From the NCBI GenBank assembly GCA_964586355.1, contig CAZPGO010000023.1, positions 1 to 11,893 on the forward strand: 11,893 nucleotides of DNA, given 5' to 3'. Positions 1,547 to 5,608 of this stretch are shown in pieces. Every line of letters starts with the position of its first letter. The stretch's first letter is position 1. The notes under the pieces were generated by a model that saw only the letters and a list, made by a program, of their open reading frames with translations, did not search any database and was not told the origin of the DNA. The position numbers and the translations under genes are program-made. Origin of the DNA: an uncultured archaeon (GTDB taxonomy: Archaea > Iainarchaeota > Iainarchaeia > Iainarchaeales > CSSED10-239).

Positions 1547-4500
1547 TTACTTCTTGTTCTTATTCTTTTTAATTATTGCTCTAGGTGGCCTTTTTATTAC
1601 TGCTCTTGCAGATCTAATAAGCGAGGTAGATCTTTTGTTTGCTTTTTTCTCAAGTTCTGCAATTGCAAGCTTTGTTTTTACAACTGTATCTGGATTTAAG
1701 CTAATAGATTTAATACCATTTTCAACTAAAAACAAAGCAAAGTCTGGATAATCTGATGGTGCTTGACCACAAATACCAATATATTTCTTTTTCTTATTTG
1801 CAATTTCAATTACTTCTTTAATCATTTTCTTTACTGCTGGATTTCTTTCATCATAAATGTTTGTTAAAAGTTCTGAGTTTCTATCAAGTCCTAAGATCAA
1901 TTGGGTTAGATCATTACTTCCAATACTAAATCCATCAAAGATATCTAAAAACTCATCTGCTAAAATTACATTTGAAGGAATCTCACACATACAATGAACA
2001 TATAACCCATCCTTTCCTTTTTCTAATCTATTTTTTTTCATTTCAGAAATTACTGCTTTTGCTTCATCTATGGTTCTACAAAAAGGAATCATAATTTCTA
2101 AATTTTTTAAACCAAATTCTTCTCTTACTTTTTTAATTGCTTTACATTCTAGTTTAAAACCTTCTTTATAATTTCCTTGATAATACCTAGAAGCCCCACG
2201 CCAACCAATCATTGGATTACTTTCAATTGGTTCATATTCTTTTCCTCCAATAAGGTTTGCATATTCATCTGATTTAAAATCTGATAATCTCAAAATAACC
2301 TTTTTTGGATAGAAACCAGCAGCAATTCTTGCAATTCCTTGAGCTAAAACGTCTACAAAGTATTGTGATTTATCTTTATAGTTAGGAGTTAATTCATCTA
2401 TTTTCCATTTAACTTGCTTGTCTGTAAGTTTATTATAGTTAATTAATGCAAGTGGATGAATCTTAATCCAAGAATTAATTATAAACTCTTCTCTTGCAAG
2501 ACCAACACCATCATTAGGTAAAAAGCTTAGATCAAATGCTTGCTCAGGATTTCCAACATTTAGTGTTATTTGTGTTTTAGTTTCTGGCATTTTTGAAATA
2601 TCAGTAATTTCTTTTTCAAAAGCAACTTTTCCATCATAAACAAAAGCATTATCTCCTGTTGAACAATCAATAGTAACTGTTTGCCCAGTTTTTAATTTTT
2701 CAGTAGCATTAAGAGATCCCACAATACAAGGTATTCCGTGTTCTCTTGCAATTATTGCGGCGTGACAGGTCCTTCCACCCCTATTAGTAACAATACCGGA
2801 AGCAATCTTCATAATTGGCTCCCAATCAGGATCAGTCATTTCTGTTACTAATATTTCATCTTTTTTAAATTGATGAATATCTTTTACATCTCTGATAATA
2901 TTAACTTTTCCAGAAACCATTTTTTGACCAATACTTTTTCCAACTACTAATGGTTCTGGTGCTTTTGTTTTTAGATTATAGGTAACATATTGATTTCTAT
3001 TTTTTTGTGATTGAACAGTCTCTGGTCTTGCTTGAACAATAAACAATTCATTTGTTATTCCATCAATTGCCCATTCCATATCCATTGGTTTATAATGACT
3101 AGCTTTTTTAGAATAATAATCTTCAATTATTACTGCCCATTTTGCTAGTTGAAGTATTTGAGAATCAGTTACGCAAAATTGGTTTCTTCTAGTTAGATCA
3201 ACAGCAACATTTTTTACTTGTTTATTTCCTTGAGTATCATAGATCATTTTCATGTTTTTTGAACCAAGAGTCTTTGAAATTATAGCATTATATCCTTCTT
3301 TTAAAGTAGGTTTAAAAACATAAAACTCATCAGGAGTTACAGCTCCTTGAACAACATTTTCTCCAAGCCCATAAGCTCCATTAATTAACACAACATCTTT
3401 AAATCCACTTTCAGTATCTATTGAAAACATAACACCTGAAGAAGCTTGATCACTTCTTACCATTCTTTGAACACAGATTGATAAAGCAACTTCAAAATGA
3501 TTAAATTTTTTTGCTTCTCTATAAGAGATAGCTCTATTAGTAAACAAAGATGCAAAACATTTCCTACAAGCAGCAATTAATTCAGTTGGGCCTTTAATAT
3601 TTAAGTATGTTTCTTGCTGACCAGCAAATGAGGCACTATTATGTGTAATAATATTACCTAATCCTGAATTAAAATTTTCTGTTTTAGAAACAGTAAAATC
3701 ATAAACTAATCCAGTATAATTAATTGGTTCGATTTTTTTTATTTTATCCCACAACACATTACTTTCAAAATATGGTAAATATTCTTTAAAATTTAATTTA
3801 TTAAATAACTCAATTAATTTATCTTTTGAAATACTACCGTTTAAAACACCTTTATTCCAAGGACATTTTCCTTTTATAAATTTGCCTTTTTGATCATAAT
3901 TTATATATTTTAAAATTTCTTTAAACTTAATTTCATTTTCATAAAATGTTTTTTTACAACCCTTACAAAAATATCTTAATTTATTTTTATAATGGCTTGT
4001 TTTTTCTAATGATTTATTACAAATTGGACAAATACCAATACATACTTGTGTTTTATTTAATTTCAAATCATATTCTTCTTTTATCTTTTTAGACAAAATA
4101 TCTGAAATTAAAATATTGTTTTTCATTGATGGATGAATCTTTAATAAATCATATGTTTTAATTAATTCATTTAATTTATTAATTTTATTTTTATTAATAA
4201 ATGAAATTTCTGTTTTATATTTTGGTACACATTTTGCAGGGATAGTTAAATAAAAATATTTATTTGTATTTTTCAGATAATATTCATAATCTAAAATAGA
4301 TAACAAAATAGAAACACCATAAACTAATTTTTTAGAACTAGAACAAAAAGAAACTCCTTTTTTTGAAACACAACCATCTCCATCAAAAATTCCTTTTAAA
4401 AAAGAAGAAATAATTTTAGAATTAGAACTATAAATAAATTCAGGAACTTCTTTAATATAAGCAGACCTCCCTTTTCCCTTAAAATTCAACGGTTTTCCTG

Positions 4501-5608
4501 TAACACTTTGTAAAAAGCTAACTAATGTTTTAGAATAAATTCTTAATGAATTTTTATTAATTTTACTATTGTTATAAATACCAATTGATTTATAAAAAGA
4601 AATTATTTTATTCATAATATTTTTATCAGAATTAGTAATAATTACTTCATTATTTTTATAAGTACAGCCTTCAGCACAAAAAACACCTAAGAAATAAGAA
4701 AACTCTTCATTTAAATTTATAATTTTAGGCAAGGGGGTTTGAATTTTCCAATTATTTGATTTATTTTTAATATATATATTATTATTAATAACTTCTACAT
4801 CTTCTTTTGAAATATAATTTAAAACATTAATTTCTTTTAAATTAGATTTATTTATTGGTAATTGTTTAATAGTAGGAATAAATTCCTTACCATTAAGATC
4901 ATCAATAGAAACAACTTTTTGTTTCATATCGTTAGTATCTAAAACTATCAAAGAATGATCTTTTGTAATAACTATTTCTTTACCAGTTTCTGTTGTAATT
5001 TTATATAATTTTTTATTTTTTGCAGGATGTGCATAAATATCACTAACTTTTGACCAAACAATTTTATTATTGTTCATTGAAGGTACTTCTATATCTTTTT
5101 GATCTTTATATTTTTTATAAATATTTTCAATAGTATCACAAACAATTTTATTATTTAGTTTTATAAAAACTAATTCATCTTTAGAAATACTTGGCAGATC
5201 TTCTGCTGTTGCACTTGATCTTACAGCTACATCTAGTTCTTTAACTTTTTCTTTTTTACATAATTGATAATAGTGTTCTGTTATTTCGTCTTCTAATTCT
5301 TTTGGAAGAGGTGTGTTTCTTATAAGTTGTCTTACTTCATGTCCTTTTCTCATAAGATTTTCTAAGTTATTAACATTAAGGTCTTTTAATATTTTTTCAA
5401 TTTCTTTTTTTATTCCGCCTTTTTCTAAAAGATACCTATAAGCATAAGCAGTAACTGCAAAACCATATGGAACCTTAACACCTTGTTTTCCTAGATTTTG
5501 ATACATTTCTCCTAAAGATGCGTTTTTCCCACCAACAATAGGAACGTCATCAATACCAATTTCATCAAACCACAAAACAAATTTGTCTTCTCTCTTTATC
5601 TCTCTCAT
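1547..5608 (-). CDS. ppsA: Phosphoenolpyruvate synthase (pyruvate, water dikinase) interrupted by one in-frame intein; the mature extein is ~835 aa
   Basis: The N-terminal ATP-grasp region reads [29 protein letters not shown]...[13 protein letters not shown], then the insert, then [17 protein letters not shown]. The swivel domain carries the phospho-His loop [24 protein letters not shown] (His codon 2764-2762). The C-terminal PEP-utilizer TIM barrel has [27 protein letters not shown] and ICGQAPSD. The ORF track starts at GTG 5617, but I prefer ATG 5608 because GGAGTG lies 6 nt upstream of it. Confidence 0.93.
   Translation of the reverse strand: [1353 protein letters not shown]
3638..5191 (-). 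mobile_element. Intein (518 codons) with a LAGLIDADG homing-endonuclease domain, inserted in ppsA
   Basis: The insert begins with Ser (AGT, 5191-5189) right after AEDLP. It ends ...GNIITHN (AAT, 3640-3638), followed by the +1 Ser of SASFAGQQ. Recognisable intein blocks are A [24 protein letters not shown] (TxxH), C [13 protein letters not shown], D-like [36 protein letters not shown] and G NIITHN|S. The length of 1554 nt is divisible by 3 and there are no internal stops. Confidence 0.9.

What the first reader, a model, noticed from the sequence alone, without database searches (positions are those of the whole stretch)
3638..5191. Intact LAGLIDADG intein splitting ppsA inside the ATP-grasp motif [13 protein letters not shown], possibly an undescribed insertion site
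The PpsA sequence stops after ...[13 protein letters not shown]. It runs through 518 unrelated residues and resumes with [17 protein letters not shown]. Deleting 3638-5191 restores the canonical [18 protein letters not shown] nucleotide-binding motif of PEP synthase/PPDK. The insert has all the splicing blocks (Ser1, TxxH, terminal HN, +1 Ser) and both LAGLIDADG motifs, with no stops, so it looks functional rather than decayed. From memory, the classical PpsA intein (Methanocaldococcus jannaschii, Mja PEP) sits at the phospho-histidine loop. Here that loop (GGRTCHAAI, His codon 2764-2762) is uninterrupted, so this would be a second, different insertion point in the same enzyme. It also uses Ser rather than Cys at both nucleophile positions. 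I cannot verify the catalogue status without a search.
Basis: partly seen in the sequence, partly recalled or inferred. Interest (0 to 1): 0.7.

Follow-up and report, generated by a model that had tools for sequence, protein, structure and literature searches.

The report
Mobile intein in PEP synthase ATP site
The PEP synthase gene of an uncultured DPANN-type archaeon is interrupted by a real, intact self-splicing intein with a homing endonuclease, at a second site in the ATP-binding domain that I could not find described in print; it is an ordinary kind of element, but near-identical strains lack it.

Summary
Window 3638-5191 (minus strand) encodes 518 residues inserted in frame in ppsA between AEDLP and SASFAGQQ. 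It is a class-1 intein with a LAGLIDADG homing endonuclease. Removing it restores a sequence that aligns without gaps to solved, intein-free PEP synthases.

The classical PEP synthase intein site (GGxT/CHAA, the phosphohistidine loop) is unoccupied here. It is occupied in a 95%-identical relative.

The site is not unique to this window. I found 38 distinct inteins at exactly this junction, in Woesearchaeota, Pacearchaeota and Nanoarchaeota MAGs and in metagenomes. All have Ser1, a terminal His-Asn and Ser or Thr at +1.

Five alleles about 96% identical to the window's extein lack the intein and read AEDLV-D-ASF. The element is therefore polymorphic between close strains, and window-specific substitutions cluster at the junction. 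Some pairs show much higher intein identity than extein identity, and intein dN/dS is about 0.09-0.15. Both point to a mobile element under purifying selection.

Extra points:
- A conserved four-Cys zinc ribbon sits in the accessory-domain position.
- A third PpsA intein site occurs in one relative.

I found no paper describing this site, and InBase could not be checked.

Verdict: a new member of a known kind, of moderate interest.

The parts
1547..5608 (-). ppsA (phosphoenolpyruvate synthase / pyruvate, water dikinase) precursor gene, 1353 aa from ATG 5606-5608. The ORF listing extends it to GTG 5617. The stop codon is 1547-1549.
   Evidence: NCBIfam PRK06464 scores 1180 bits and TIGR01418 1139 bits, each matched in two stretches around the insert. 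Pfam finds PPDK_N, PEP-utilizers and PEP-utilizers_C. The exact 1353-aa product is on record on 8 contigs.
5192..5608 (-). N-extein (first part of the ATP-grasp PPDK_N domain), ending ...[13 protein letters not shown]. Arg of VAVRSS is at 5219-5221.
3638..5191 (-). Intein, 518 aa, class 1 (Ser1 ... His-Asn, with Ser at +1) and a nested LAGLIDADG homing endonuclease.
   Evidence: There are 38 allelic homologues at the same junction.
5171..5191 (-). Splicing block A, SISKDEL. Ser1 (5189-5191) is the first nucleophile.
   Evidence: Ser1 is invariant in 38/38 allelic inteins.
4955..4966 (-). Splicing block B, TKDH (TxxH).
   Evidence: His79 is invariant in alignment A3. The Thr is Ser in most relatives.
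4667..4696 (-). First LAGLIDADG motif, [10 protein letters not shown]. Glu174 is the putative catalytic acidic residue.
   Evidence: G175 is invariant and E174 is conserved in at least 90% of A3. One decaying relative (L041) has Lys here.
4430..4453 (-). Endonuclease block D, KEVPEFIY, with a conserved Lys.
   Evidence: K247, P250 and F252 are invariant in A3. The assignment to block D rests on general knowledge of intein blocks.
4373..4402 (-). Second LAGLIDADG motif, [10 protein letters not shown]. Asp272 is the putative catalytic residue.
   Evidence: D270, G271, D272 and G273 are invariant in A3.
3767..4129 (-). Accessory module between the endonuclease and the C-terminal splicing part: helices plus a four-Cys zinc ribbon (Cys codons 4028-4030, 4019-4021, 3965-3967, 3956-3958).
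   Evidence: All four Cys are invariant in 13 inteins that are only 38-47% identical to the window's. NCBIfam gives weak IS1/IS1595 and IS256 transposase Zn-binding matches (E 3e-4, below cut-off). The module is exactly missing in the 401-aa relative L046. The isolated model gives only generic zinc-ribbon matches, none significant.
3689..3706 (-). Splicing block F, VYDFTV.
   Evidence: V496, Y497, D498 and F499 are invariant in A3.
3638..3658 (-). Splicing block G, GNIITHN. It carries the penultimate His517 and the terminal Asn518.
   Evidence: T516, H517 and N518 are invariant. All 38 inteins end in HN.
1550..3637 (-). C-extein: +1 Ser (3635-3637), then ASFAGQQET (Thr at 3608-3610), the rest of PPDK_N, the swivel domain and the PEP-binding domain.
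2753..2779 (-). Phosphohistidine loop GGRTCHAAI. This is the classical PEP synthase intein site (GGxT/CHAA) and is unoccupied here.
   Evidence: It is occupied by 402-404-aa inteins in relatives P0007, P0039, P0043, P0056, P0062 and P0064.

Best explanation
This is a bifunctional, mobile class-1 intein that sits in the ATP-grasp domain of PEP synthase in a DPANN-type archaeon.

Splicing (inferred from motifs): the gene is translated as a 1353-aa precursor whose ATP site is split between the two alpha-phosphate ligands. The intein then removes itself by the standard four steps. Ser1 makes an N-O acyl shift. The +1 Ser attacks in a transesterification. Asn518 cyclises, helped by His517. An O-N shift then leaves a normal peptide bond and an active 835-aa enzyme reading [13 protein letters not shown].

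Homing (inferred): at the DNA level the nested LAGLIDADG endonuclease, probably helped by the zinc-ribbon accessory module as an extra DNA-binding element, cuts intein-free ppsA alleles at the conserved AEDLP/xASFAGQQ codons. Repair from the intein-bearing copy copies in the intein plus a few flanking codons, including the obligatory Asp/Glu-to-Ser/Thr change at +1.

Shown here: intein identity, exact junction, family membership, presence/absence polymorphism, purifying selection, and discordance between intein and extein similarity.

Inferred only: actual splicing, endonuclease activity, and the role of the zinc ribbon.
For: 1. Domains and fold. Pfam and NCBIfam find the intein and LAGLIDADG domains. 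PDB sequence hits are PI-PkoII and the TFIIB mini-intein. The model (pLDDT 83.6, pTM 0.78) matches TliVMA 7QSS, PI-PkoII 2CW7 (TM 0.64) and PI-PfuI 1DQ3 at E about 1e-21.

2. Junction. The spliced product aligns without gaps to 2OLS, 9DAE, 8A8E and RPH-Lm.

3. Conserved residues. Every catalytic splicing and endonuclease residue, and all four Cys, are invariant across 13 allelic inteins that are only 38-47% identical to the window's.

4. Family size. There are 38 distinct inteins at this junction, with Ser1 in 38/38, HN in 38/38 and +1 Ser 20 / Thr 18. Of the 119 closest PpsA without an intein at this site, 115 have Asp at +1.

5. Polymorphism. The window protein shares its 90% cluster with five 835-aa intein-free alleles that read AEDLV-D-ASF. 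L017 is 90% identical in DNA and lacks exactly the 1554 nt; 8 of the 9 nt at the junction differ. Window-specific substitutions cluster within 60 nt of the junction, 15 observed against 6.5 expected (p = 0.003). A second case is P0001 against the intein-free P0283.

6. Horizontal transfer. The window's extein clade (66-96% identity, 119 proteins) lacks this intein. Carriers elsewhere have exteins 38-61% identical to the window's. For L006/L020 the intein is 76% identical while the N-extein is 52%.

7. Selection. Intein dN/dS is 0.09-0.15 where dS is about 1, as low as for the extein.

8. Homing-cycle remnants. L014 is frameshifted. L041 has a stop and a Glu-to-Lys change in the first LAGLIDADG motif. 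L046 (401 aa) and P0147 (259 aa) are reduced versions.
Against: - No biochemical evidence exists for splicing or for DNA cleavage.
- The closest sampled intein is only 49.6% identical to the window's, so no donor is identified.
- The intein's GC3 (8%) is fully adapted to AT-rich genomes. The copy may therefore be an old resident rather than a recent arrival.
- The extra substitutions near the junction could also reflect selection for splicing-compatible flanks rather than co-conversion.
- The intein-free alleles in the same cluster differ at 8 of the 9 junction bases. They may not be substrates of this enzyme.
- Pro at -1 is, from my memory of intein engineering work (not checked here), unfavourable for the first step in several model inteins.
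Confidence: 0.8

Rival explanations
1. The intein splices but is no longer mobile. The endonuclease is inactive or has no available targets, and the element is now inherited only vertically in this lineage.
For: The closest known relative is only about 50% identical. GC3 is fully host-like or lower. Sister alleles differ at 8 of the 9 junction nucleotides and may be uncuttable. Decayed copies exist in the family: L014, L041 and P0147.
Against: Both LAGLIDADG acidic residues, the block D Lys and the zinc ribbon are intact and invariant. Intein dN/dS is 0.09-0.15 over its whole length. Presence/absence polymorphism occurs between exteins about 96% identical. Intein and extein similarities are discordant.
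Confidence: 0.15
2. The intein has been co-opted as a post-translational switch. PpsA stays inactive, with its ATP site split, until a signal such as zinc, redox state or temperature permits splicing. This would regulate gluconeogenesis.
For: The insertion lies between the two alpha-phosphate ligands of the ATP-grasp site, so the precursor must be inactive. A conserved metal-binding module is present. Conditional splicing is proposed for other ATP-site inteins (PMC4760082).
Against: Most close relatives do without the intein. The family shows decay and loss typical of a selfish element. Ser nucleophiles give no redox handle. Nothing here tests regulation.
Confidence: 0.04
3. The insert is not removed. 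It is a permanent inserted domain, or the gene is a pseudogene or an assembly artefact.
For: No direct evidence of splicing is available.
Against: All splicing blocks are intact and invariant. The insert would split the ATP site. The open frame has P about 2e-26 by chance. The extein is under strong conservation, with 96% identical intein-free alleles. Identical sequence occurs in 8 contigs from independent samples.
Confidence: 0.01

Closest known systems
Classical PEP synthase intein (Mja PEP type) at the phosphohistidine loop, GG[TRM]T/CHAA
   Same: It has the same host enzyme and is also a LAGLIDADG intein. It occurs in the same DPANN clade, for example P0007, whose extein is about 95% identical to the window's.
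   Different: The site lies about 290 extein residues away. It uses Cys1 and Cys+1 and ends in Asn-Asn in P0007. It is 402-410 aa and has no zinc ribbon. Only about 23% local identity links it to the window intein. The two can co-occur in one protein, P0132.
Archaeal homing-endonuclease inteins with accessory domains: PI-PkoII/PI-TkoII (2CW7), PI-PfuI (1DQ3), TliVMA (7QSS)
   Same: They share the overall architecture of a HINT splicing domain, a nested LAGLIDADG endonuclease, and an extra module between the endonuclease and the C-terminal HINT part. Foldseek gives E about 1e-21 and TM up to 0.64. A paper describes these accessory domains as diverse and DNA-contacting (PMC8966425).
   Different: Sequence identity is only 15-17%. 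The host proteins differ (DNA polymerase, RNR, VMA ATPase). The accessory domains that paper characterises (TliVMA, PI-TkoII) are helix-turn-helix-like. Here the position holds a four-Cys zinc ribbon.
Inteins inserted in nucleotide-binding sites of ATPases (RadA/RecA, VMA, DnaB, RFC)
   Same: The insertion falls in the most conserved, ligand-binding part of the host, so the precursor is inactive and imprecise loss is lethal. The RFC inteins of Desulfurococcaceae (L015, L016) are the nearest non-PpsA hits in the genome scan, at about 28% identity.
   Different: The host here is a central-carbon-metabolism enzyme with an ATP-grasp fold, not a P-loop replication or repair protein.

Membership tests
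Class 1 intein (HINT domain protein-splicing element) | In-frame insertion whose removal restores a contiguous, conserved host sequence | tested here: met
   The spliced extein aligns without gaps to 2OLS, 9DAE, 8A8E and 5FBS across the junction. Intein-free alleles 96% identical to the extein exist.
Class 1 intein (HINT domain protein-splicing element) | Nucleophile (Cys/Ser) at residue 1, and Cys/Ser/Thr at +1 | tested here: met
   The window has Ser1 and Ser+1. Across the family Ser1 is 38/38 and +1 is Ser or Thr in 38/38.
Class 1 intein (HINT domain protein-splicing element) | Block B TxxH, block F, and block G ending His-Asn | tested here: met
   TKDH, VYDFTV and GNIITHN are present. H79, D498, H517 and N518 are invariant in A3.
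Class 1 intein (HINT domain protein-splicing element) | HINT fold | tested here: met
   Pfam Intein_splicing scores 75 bits against a 35.8-bit cut-off. The model matches intein structures, including the mini-inteins 4E2U and 5O9J.
Class 1 intein (HINT domain protein-splicing element) | Autocatalytic excision and extein ligation | not testable with these tools
   This needs expression and SDS-PAGE or mass spectrometry, or a junction peptide in proteomics.
LAGLIDADG homing endonuclease (double-motif, intein-nested) | Two LAGLIDADG motifs, each ending in an acidic residue followed by Gly | tested here: met
   [10 protein letters not shown] (E174) and [10 protein letters not shown] (D272) are present. 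They are conserved in A3. Pfam LAGLIDADG_3 scores 55 bits and Hom_end 30 bits, both above cut-off.
LAGLIDADG homing endonuclease (double-motif, intein-nested) | alpha-beta-beta-alpha-beta-beta-alpha fold pair | tested here: met
   Foldseek matches I-DmoI and I-Tsp061I over the central domain, with TM to target 0.58-0.69.
LAGLIDADG homing endonuclease (double-motif, intein-nested) | Site-specific cleavage of the intein-free allele and homing | not testable with these tools
   Only indirect evidence is available: presence/absence polymorphism, substitutions clustered at the junction, and intein/extein discordance.
Allelic family of the classical PEP synthase intein (GGxT/CHAA site) | Insertion at the phosphohistidine loop | tested here: not met
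   GGRTCHAAI is uninterrupted in the window. The insertion is at AEDLP/S, and similarity to the P0007 intein is only about 23%.
Phosphoenolpyruvate synthase (host protein) | PPDK_N ATP-grasp domain, His swivel domain and PEP-utilizers_C domain, scoring above the equivalog cut-off | tested here: met
   NF005057 scores 1180 bits (cut-off 598) and TIGR01418 1139 bits (cut-off 740).

The most novel reading that the evidence does not exclude
The conserved four-Cys zinc ribbon, with its flanking helices, may be a previously unrecognised type of DNA-targeting accessory domain for intein-borne LAGLIDADG endonucleases. It would be recruited from a transposase-like zinc ribbon and would extend or retarget recognition. 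That would let this intein lineage hop between ppsA genes only about 40-60% identical, and would make PpsA of DPANN archaea a three-site intein hotspot in a metabolic enzyme.
Probability: 0.2. Interest if true: 0.55.

Novelty: new member of a known kind. Interest (0 to 1): 0.35.

Why it matters
It adds a second insertion site to PEP synthase, and with L006 a third. PEP synthase is one of the few central-metabolism enzymes known to host inteins.

It also supplies a natural population in which three allelic states coexist at about 90% DNA identity: empty, occupied at the classical site, and occupied at the new site. That is convenient material for studying homing, co-conversion and the gain-decay-loss cycle in uncultured, genome-reduced archaea.

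The intein itself might interest protein engineers. It has Ser1 and Ser+1, Pro at -1, and comes from organisms that are probably mesophilic. Its endonuclease carries a zinc-ribbon accessory module.

None of this changes the general picture of what inteins are.

Tried and rejected
- Literature. Nine full-text searches were run on intein combined with PEP synthase, PpsA, DPANN and insertion-site terms. Only PMC10710043 names a PEP synthase site, and that is the classical one. Supplements of PMC4760082 and PMC10710043 are not held. The InBase paper is not held. The catalogue status in InBase therefore remains unchecked.
- Word-indexed protein search. With the intein, alone or as a profile, it returned only 5-6 hits. 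This is a sensitivity limit of the tool, not rarity. Contig scans and the exhaustive HMMER search found the family.
- Structure prediction. 
- Isolated accessory module. It gave only a mediocre model (pLDDT 70.8) and no significant PDB match. Pfam shows nothing above threshold.
- Viral contigs. No member of the family was found, so there is no support for a viral vector.
- RNA genes. There are no tRNA genes or Rfam families in the window. No competing ORF of at least 60 aa lies on the other strand of the intein region.
- Rejected readings. An assembly chimera is excluded by identical sequence in several samples. A relationship to the classical PpsA intein is excluded by the 23% identity.

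
Full report
**1. Observation**

The window's longest ORF (1547..5617, minus strand) is a PEP synthase. 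NCBIfam PRK06464 scores 1180 bits and TIGR01418 1139 bits, each matched in two stretches that skip residues 143-660. The sequence runs ...[13 protein letters not shown], then 518 residues encoded by 5191 down to 3638, then [17 protein letters not shown]. The phosphohistidine loop GGRTCHAAI is intact at 2753-2779.

The insert is 19.6% G+C. About 56 in-frame stops are expected from its composition and none is present (P about 2e-26). The other five frames carry 24-98 stops.

The same 1353-aa product, starting at ATG 5606-5608, is on record on 8 contigs from independent samples. Three fetched loci are 100% identical to the window in DNA. The structure is therefore not an assembly artefact.

**2. 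What the insert is**

Sequence evidence:
- Pfam finds Intein_splicing (6e-21), LAGLIDADG_3 (9e-15) and Hom_end.
- NCBIfam finds the intein N-terminal splicing region, and resemblance to intein-bearing RpoA'', DnaB and GyrA models.
- PDB sequence hits are PI-PkoII and the M. jannaschii TFIIB mini-intein.

Structural evidence: an AlphaFold model built from an 8-row alignment reaches pLDDT 83.6 and pTM 0.78. Its best structural matches are the archaeal homing-endonuclease inteins TliVMA (7QSS), PI-PkoII (2CW7, TM 0.64) and PI-PfuI (1DQ3). After them come PI-SceI, I-DmoI and mini-inteins.

The canonical blocks are all present:
- A: SISKDEL
- B: TKDH
- C: [10 protein letters not shown]
- D: KEVPEFIY
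- E: [10 protein letters not shown]
- F: VYDFTV
- G: GNIITHN, followed by Ser

**3. The junction**

The spliced extein aligns without a gap to solved, intein-free PEP synthases (2OLS, 9DAE, 8A8E) and to rifampin phosphotransferase. All of them read [13 protein letters not shown][D/E/H]ASFAGQ.

In RPH-Lm, Arg117 and Thr136 bind the alpha-phosphate of the nucleotide (PMC4844700). By the alignment these are the Arg of VAVRSS (5219-5221) and the Thr of GQQET (3608-3610). The intein sits between them, so the precursor cannot have a functional ATP site.

**4. It is a different site from the known one**

A paper gives the prokaryotic PEP synthase intein site as GG[TRM]T/CHAA (PMC10710043). Among the 120 closest homologues of the window's extein, six carry a 402-404-aa intein exactly there: P0007, P0039, P0043, P0056, P0062 and P0064. 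None of the 120 carries one at AEDLP/S. The P0007 intein and the window intein share only about 23% identity over a local alignment.

**5. The site is recurrent in public data**

Three searches found the family:
- A scan of GTDB species representatives found 12 genomes with a full-length homologue (37-47% identity). They are Woesearchaeota, Pacearchaeota and Nanoarchaeota MAGs, plus one MAG labelled Thermoplasmatales. All are at the same junction.
- A metagenome scan added about two dozen loci.
- An exhaustive HMMER search of 1.84 billion representatives gave 13 proteins at 300 bits or more. There is then a clear gap before other inteins, which score at most 229 bits.

After removing duplicates there are 38 distinct complete inteins (no pair above 95% identical) at this junction. 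Their features are:
- Ser1 in 38/38
- terminal His-Asn in 38/38
- +1 Ser in 20 and Thr in 18
- -1 Pro in 33

By contrast, of the 119 closest PpsA without an intein at this site, 115 have Asp at +1.

In a 13-sequence alignment whose members are only 38-47% identical to the window intein, the following are invariant: Ser1, His79, Gly175, D270-G273, Lys247, the VYDF motif, the THN motif and four cysteines.

The sources name these proteins only 'phosphoenolpyruvate synthase' or 'pyruvate, water dikinase'.

**6. Evidence for mobility**

Polymorphism between close strains. The window protein falls in a 90%-identity cluster with five 835-aa intein-free alleles that read AEDLV-D-ASF. One of them, L017, is 90.4% identical in DNA. 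BLAST shows it lacks exactly the 1554 nt plus 9 unalignable junction bases. P0007 (L018) is syntenic with the window. It is empty at this site and occupied at the classical site.

Substitutions at the junction. Against both empty alleles, window-specific substitutions are concentrated within 60 nt of the junction: 15 observed against 6.5 expected (Poisson p = 0.003). They include CTGCCA|AGT in the window against TTAGTC|GAC in L017 (TTAGTT|GAT in L018). This fits a short co-conversion tract that brought in Pro at -1 and Ser at +1. Selection for splicing-compatible flanks is an alternative explanation.

A second independent case. P0001 carries the intein and has Ser at +1. P0283, in the same 90% cluster, is empty and has Glu at +1.

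Intein and extein histories disagree. The window's extein clade lacks the intein, while carriers elsewhere have exteins only 38-61% identical to the window's. In L006/L020 the inteins are 76% identical but the N-exteins only 52%.

Purifying selection. Where dS is not saturated, intein dN/dS is 0.09-0.15, similar to the extein.

Decay products expected from the homing cycle also exist:
- L014 is frameshifted.
- L041 has a stop and a Glu-to-Lys change in the first LAGLIDADG motif.
- L046 is a 401-aa version.
- P0147 is a 259-aa version.

No family member was found in viral contigs.

**7. The accessory module**

Residues about 355-475 (window 3767-4129) lie between the endonuclease and the C-terminal splicing segment. 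Solved archaeal inteins carry 'accessory domains' in this position, thought to contact DNA; those of TliVMA and PI-TkoII are helix-turn-helix-like (PMC8966425).

Here the module contains a CPxC...CxxC zinc ribbon whose four Cys are invariant. NCBIfam gives sub-threshold matches to IS1/IS1595 and IS256 transposase zinc-binding domains (E 3e-4). L046 lacks exactly this module, which shows it is a discrete unit.

Modelled alone, it reaches pLDDT 70.8 and gives only non-significant matches. The more confident of these are generic zinc ribbons such as YfgJ and Rpb9. A DNA-binding role is an inference.

**8. Mechanism**

The best-supported account is the standard one. The precursor is translated. 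Class-1 splicing then proceeds through Ser1, Ser+1 and Asn518, assisted by His79 and His517, and yields active PpsA reading [13 protein letters not shown]. The endonuclease cleaves empty alleles and promotes gene conversion.

Splicing competence and cleavage are inferred from conservation and were not shown. The main rival is a splicing-only, immobile resident (0.15). A regulatory 'conditional splicing' role is possible but has no specific support (0.04).

**9. Comparison and novelty**

This is a canonical bifunctional archaeal intein. It fails the test for membership of the classical PEP synthase intein allele, because both the site and the sequence lineage differ.

I found no publication describing an intein at AEDLP/S in PpsA. 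InBase and the relevant supplementary tables could not be consulted. 'Undescribed' is therefore plausible but not proven.

Ser at both nucleophile positions is, from general knowledge of archaeal polymerase inteins, common.

**10. Verdict**

- It is a new member (a new insertion-site allele family) of a well-known kind of element.
- Its population polymorphism is attractive, and the accessory domain is a modest structural novelty.
- Interest: 0.35.

Noticed in passing
L006:4564-5405 (WJKY01000067.1, Woesearchaeota MAG Bin_263): This ppsA carries the AEDLP|S intein and is interrupted again 64 residues later...VVIQKMVNSEK|CVHPATLVQTASGEILS..., where homologues read NSEK-SGVMF. This looks like a third PpsA intein insertion site (Cys1, expected +1 Ser). 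It is cut off by the contig end. Only 1 of 37 loci has it.
   Followed up: partly
P0132 (1727 aa) and P0147 (1443 aa): These are PpsA proteins with both sites occupied. P0132 has 521 aa at AEDLP|T plus 410 aa at GGxT|CHAA. P0147 has a reduced 259-aa intein at AEDLP|S plus 410 aa at the classical site.
   Followed up: partly
L001:1293-5309 and L002:5046-8911: In two DPANN MAGs, ppsA is split into two adjacent genes. One holds PPDK_N with the intein. The other holds PEP-utilizers plus PEP-utilizers_C. In the window, and in L005 and L010, the gene is fused.
   Followed up: no
window 3767-4129 (-); L046: The roughly 120-aa zinc-ribbon accessory module of the intein is exactly absent from the 401-aa relative L046. 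It therefore behaves as a separable unit.
   Followed up: partly
window 5192-5194 (-), the -1 codon: Pro is the residue before the scissile bond in 33 of 38 family members. From memory of intein engineering work, Pro at -1 is unfavourable for N-terminal cleavage in several model inteins. This family may be adapted to it. I did not check this in the literature.
   Followed up: no
window 368-1456 (-) and 8397-10223 (-): Two secreted or surface-type proteins have an N-terminal hydrophobic segment. The first matches Pilin_N (archaeal type IV pilin N-terminus, E 0.0013, below cut-off) followed by a LamG/concanavalin-like domain. The second (no Pilin_N hit; its N-terminus looks similar by eye) has GLUG motifs. 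They flank the ppsA neighbourhood.
   Followed up: no
window 5706-7457 (-), 7498-8325 (-), 10269-11211 (-): The neighbours are a DUF2207 membrane protein, a flavodoxin plus 2x[4Fe-4S] protein, and two short ORFs. The second short ORF (10750-11211) looks like a fragment of an ABC-transporter membrane domain; the first (10269-10742) has no Pfam match. All genes are on the minus strand. The DUF2207-ppsA synteny is shared with L018 at 79-91% DNA identity.
   Followed up: partly
L015, L016 (Desulfurococcaceae MAGs): The nearest non-PpsA relatives of the intein in the genome scan are inteins in the replication factor C small subunit (ELNA|S...HN|SDERG), at about 28% identity.
   Followed up: no
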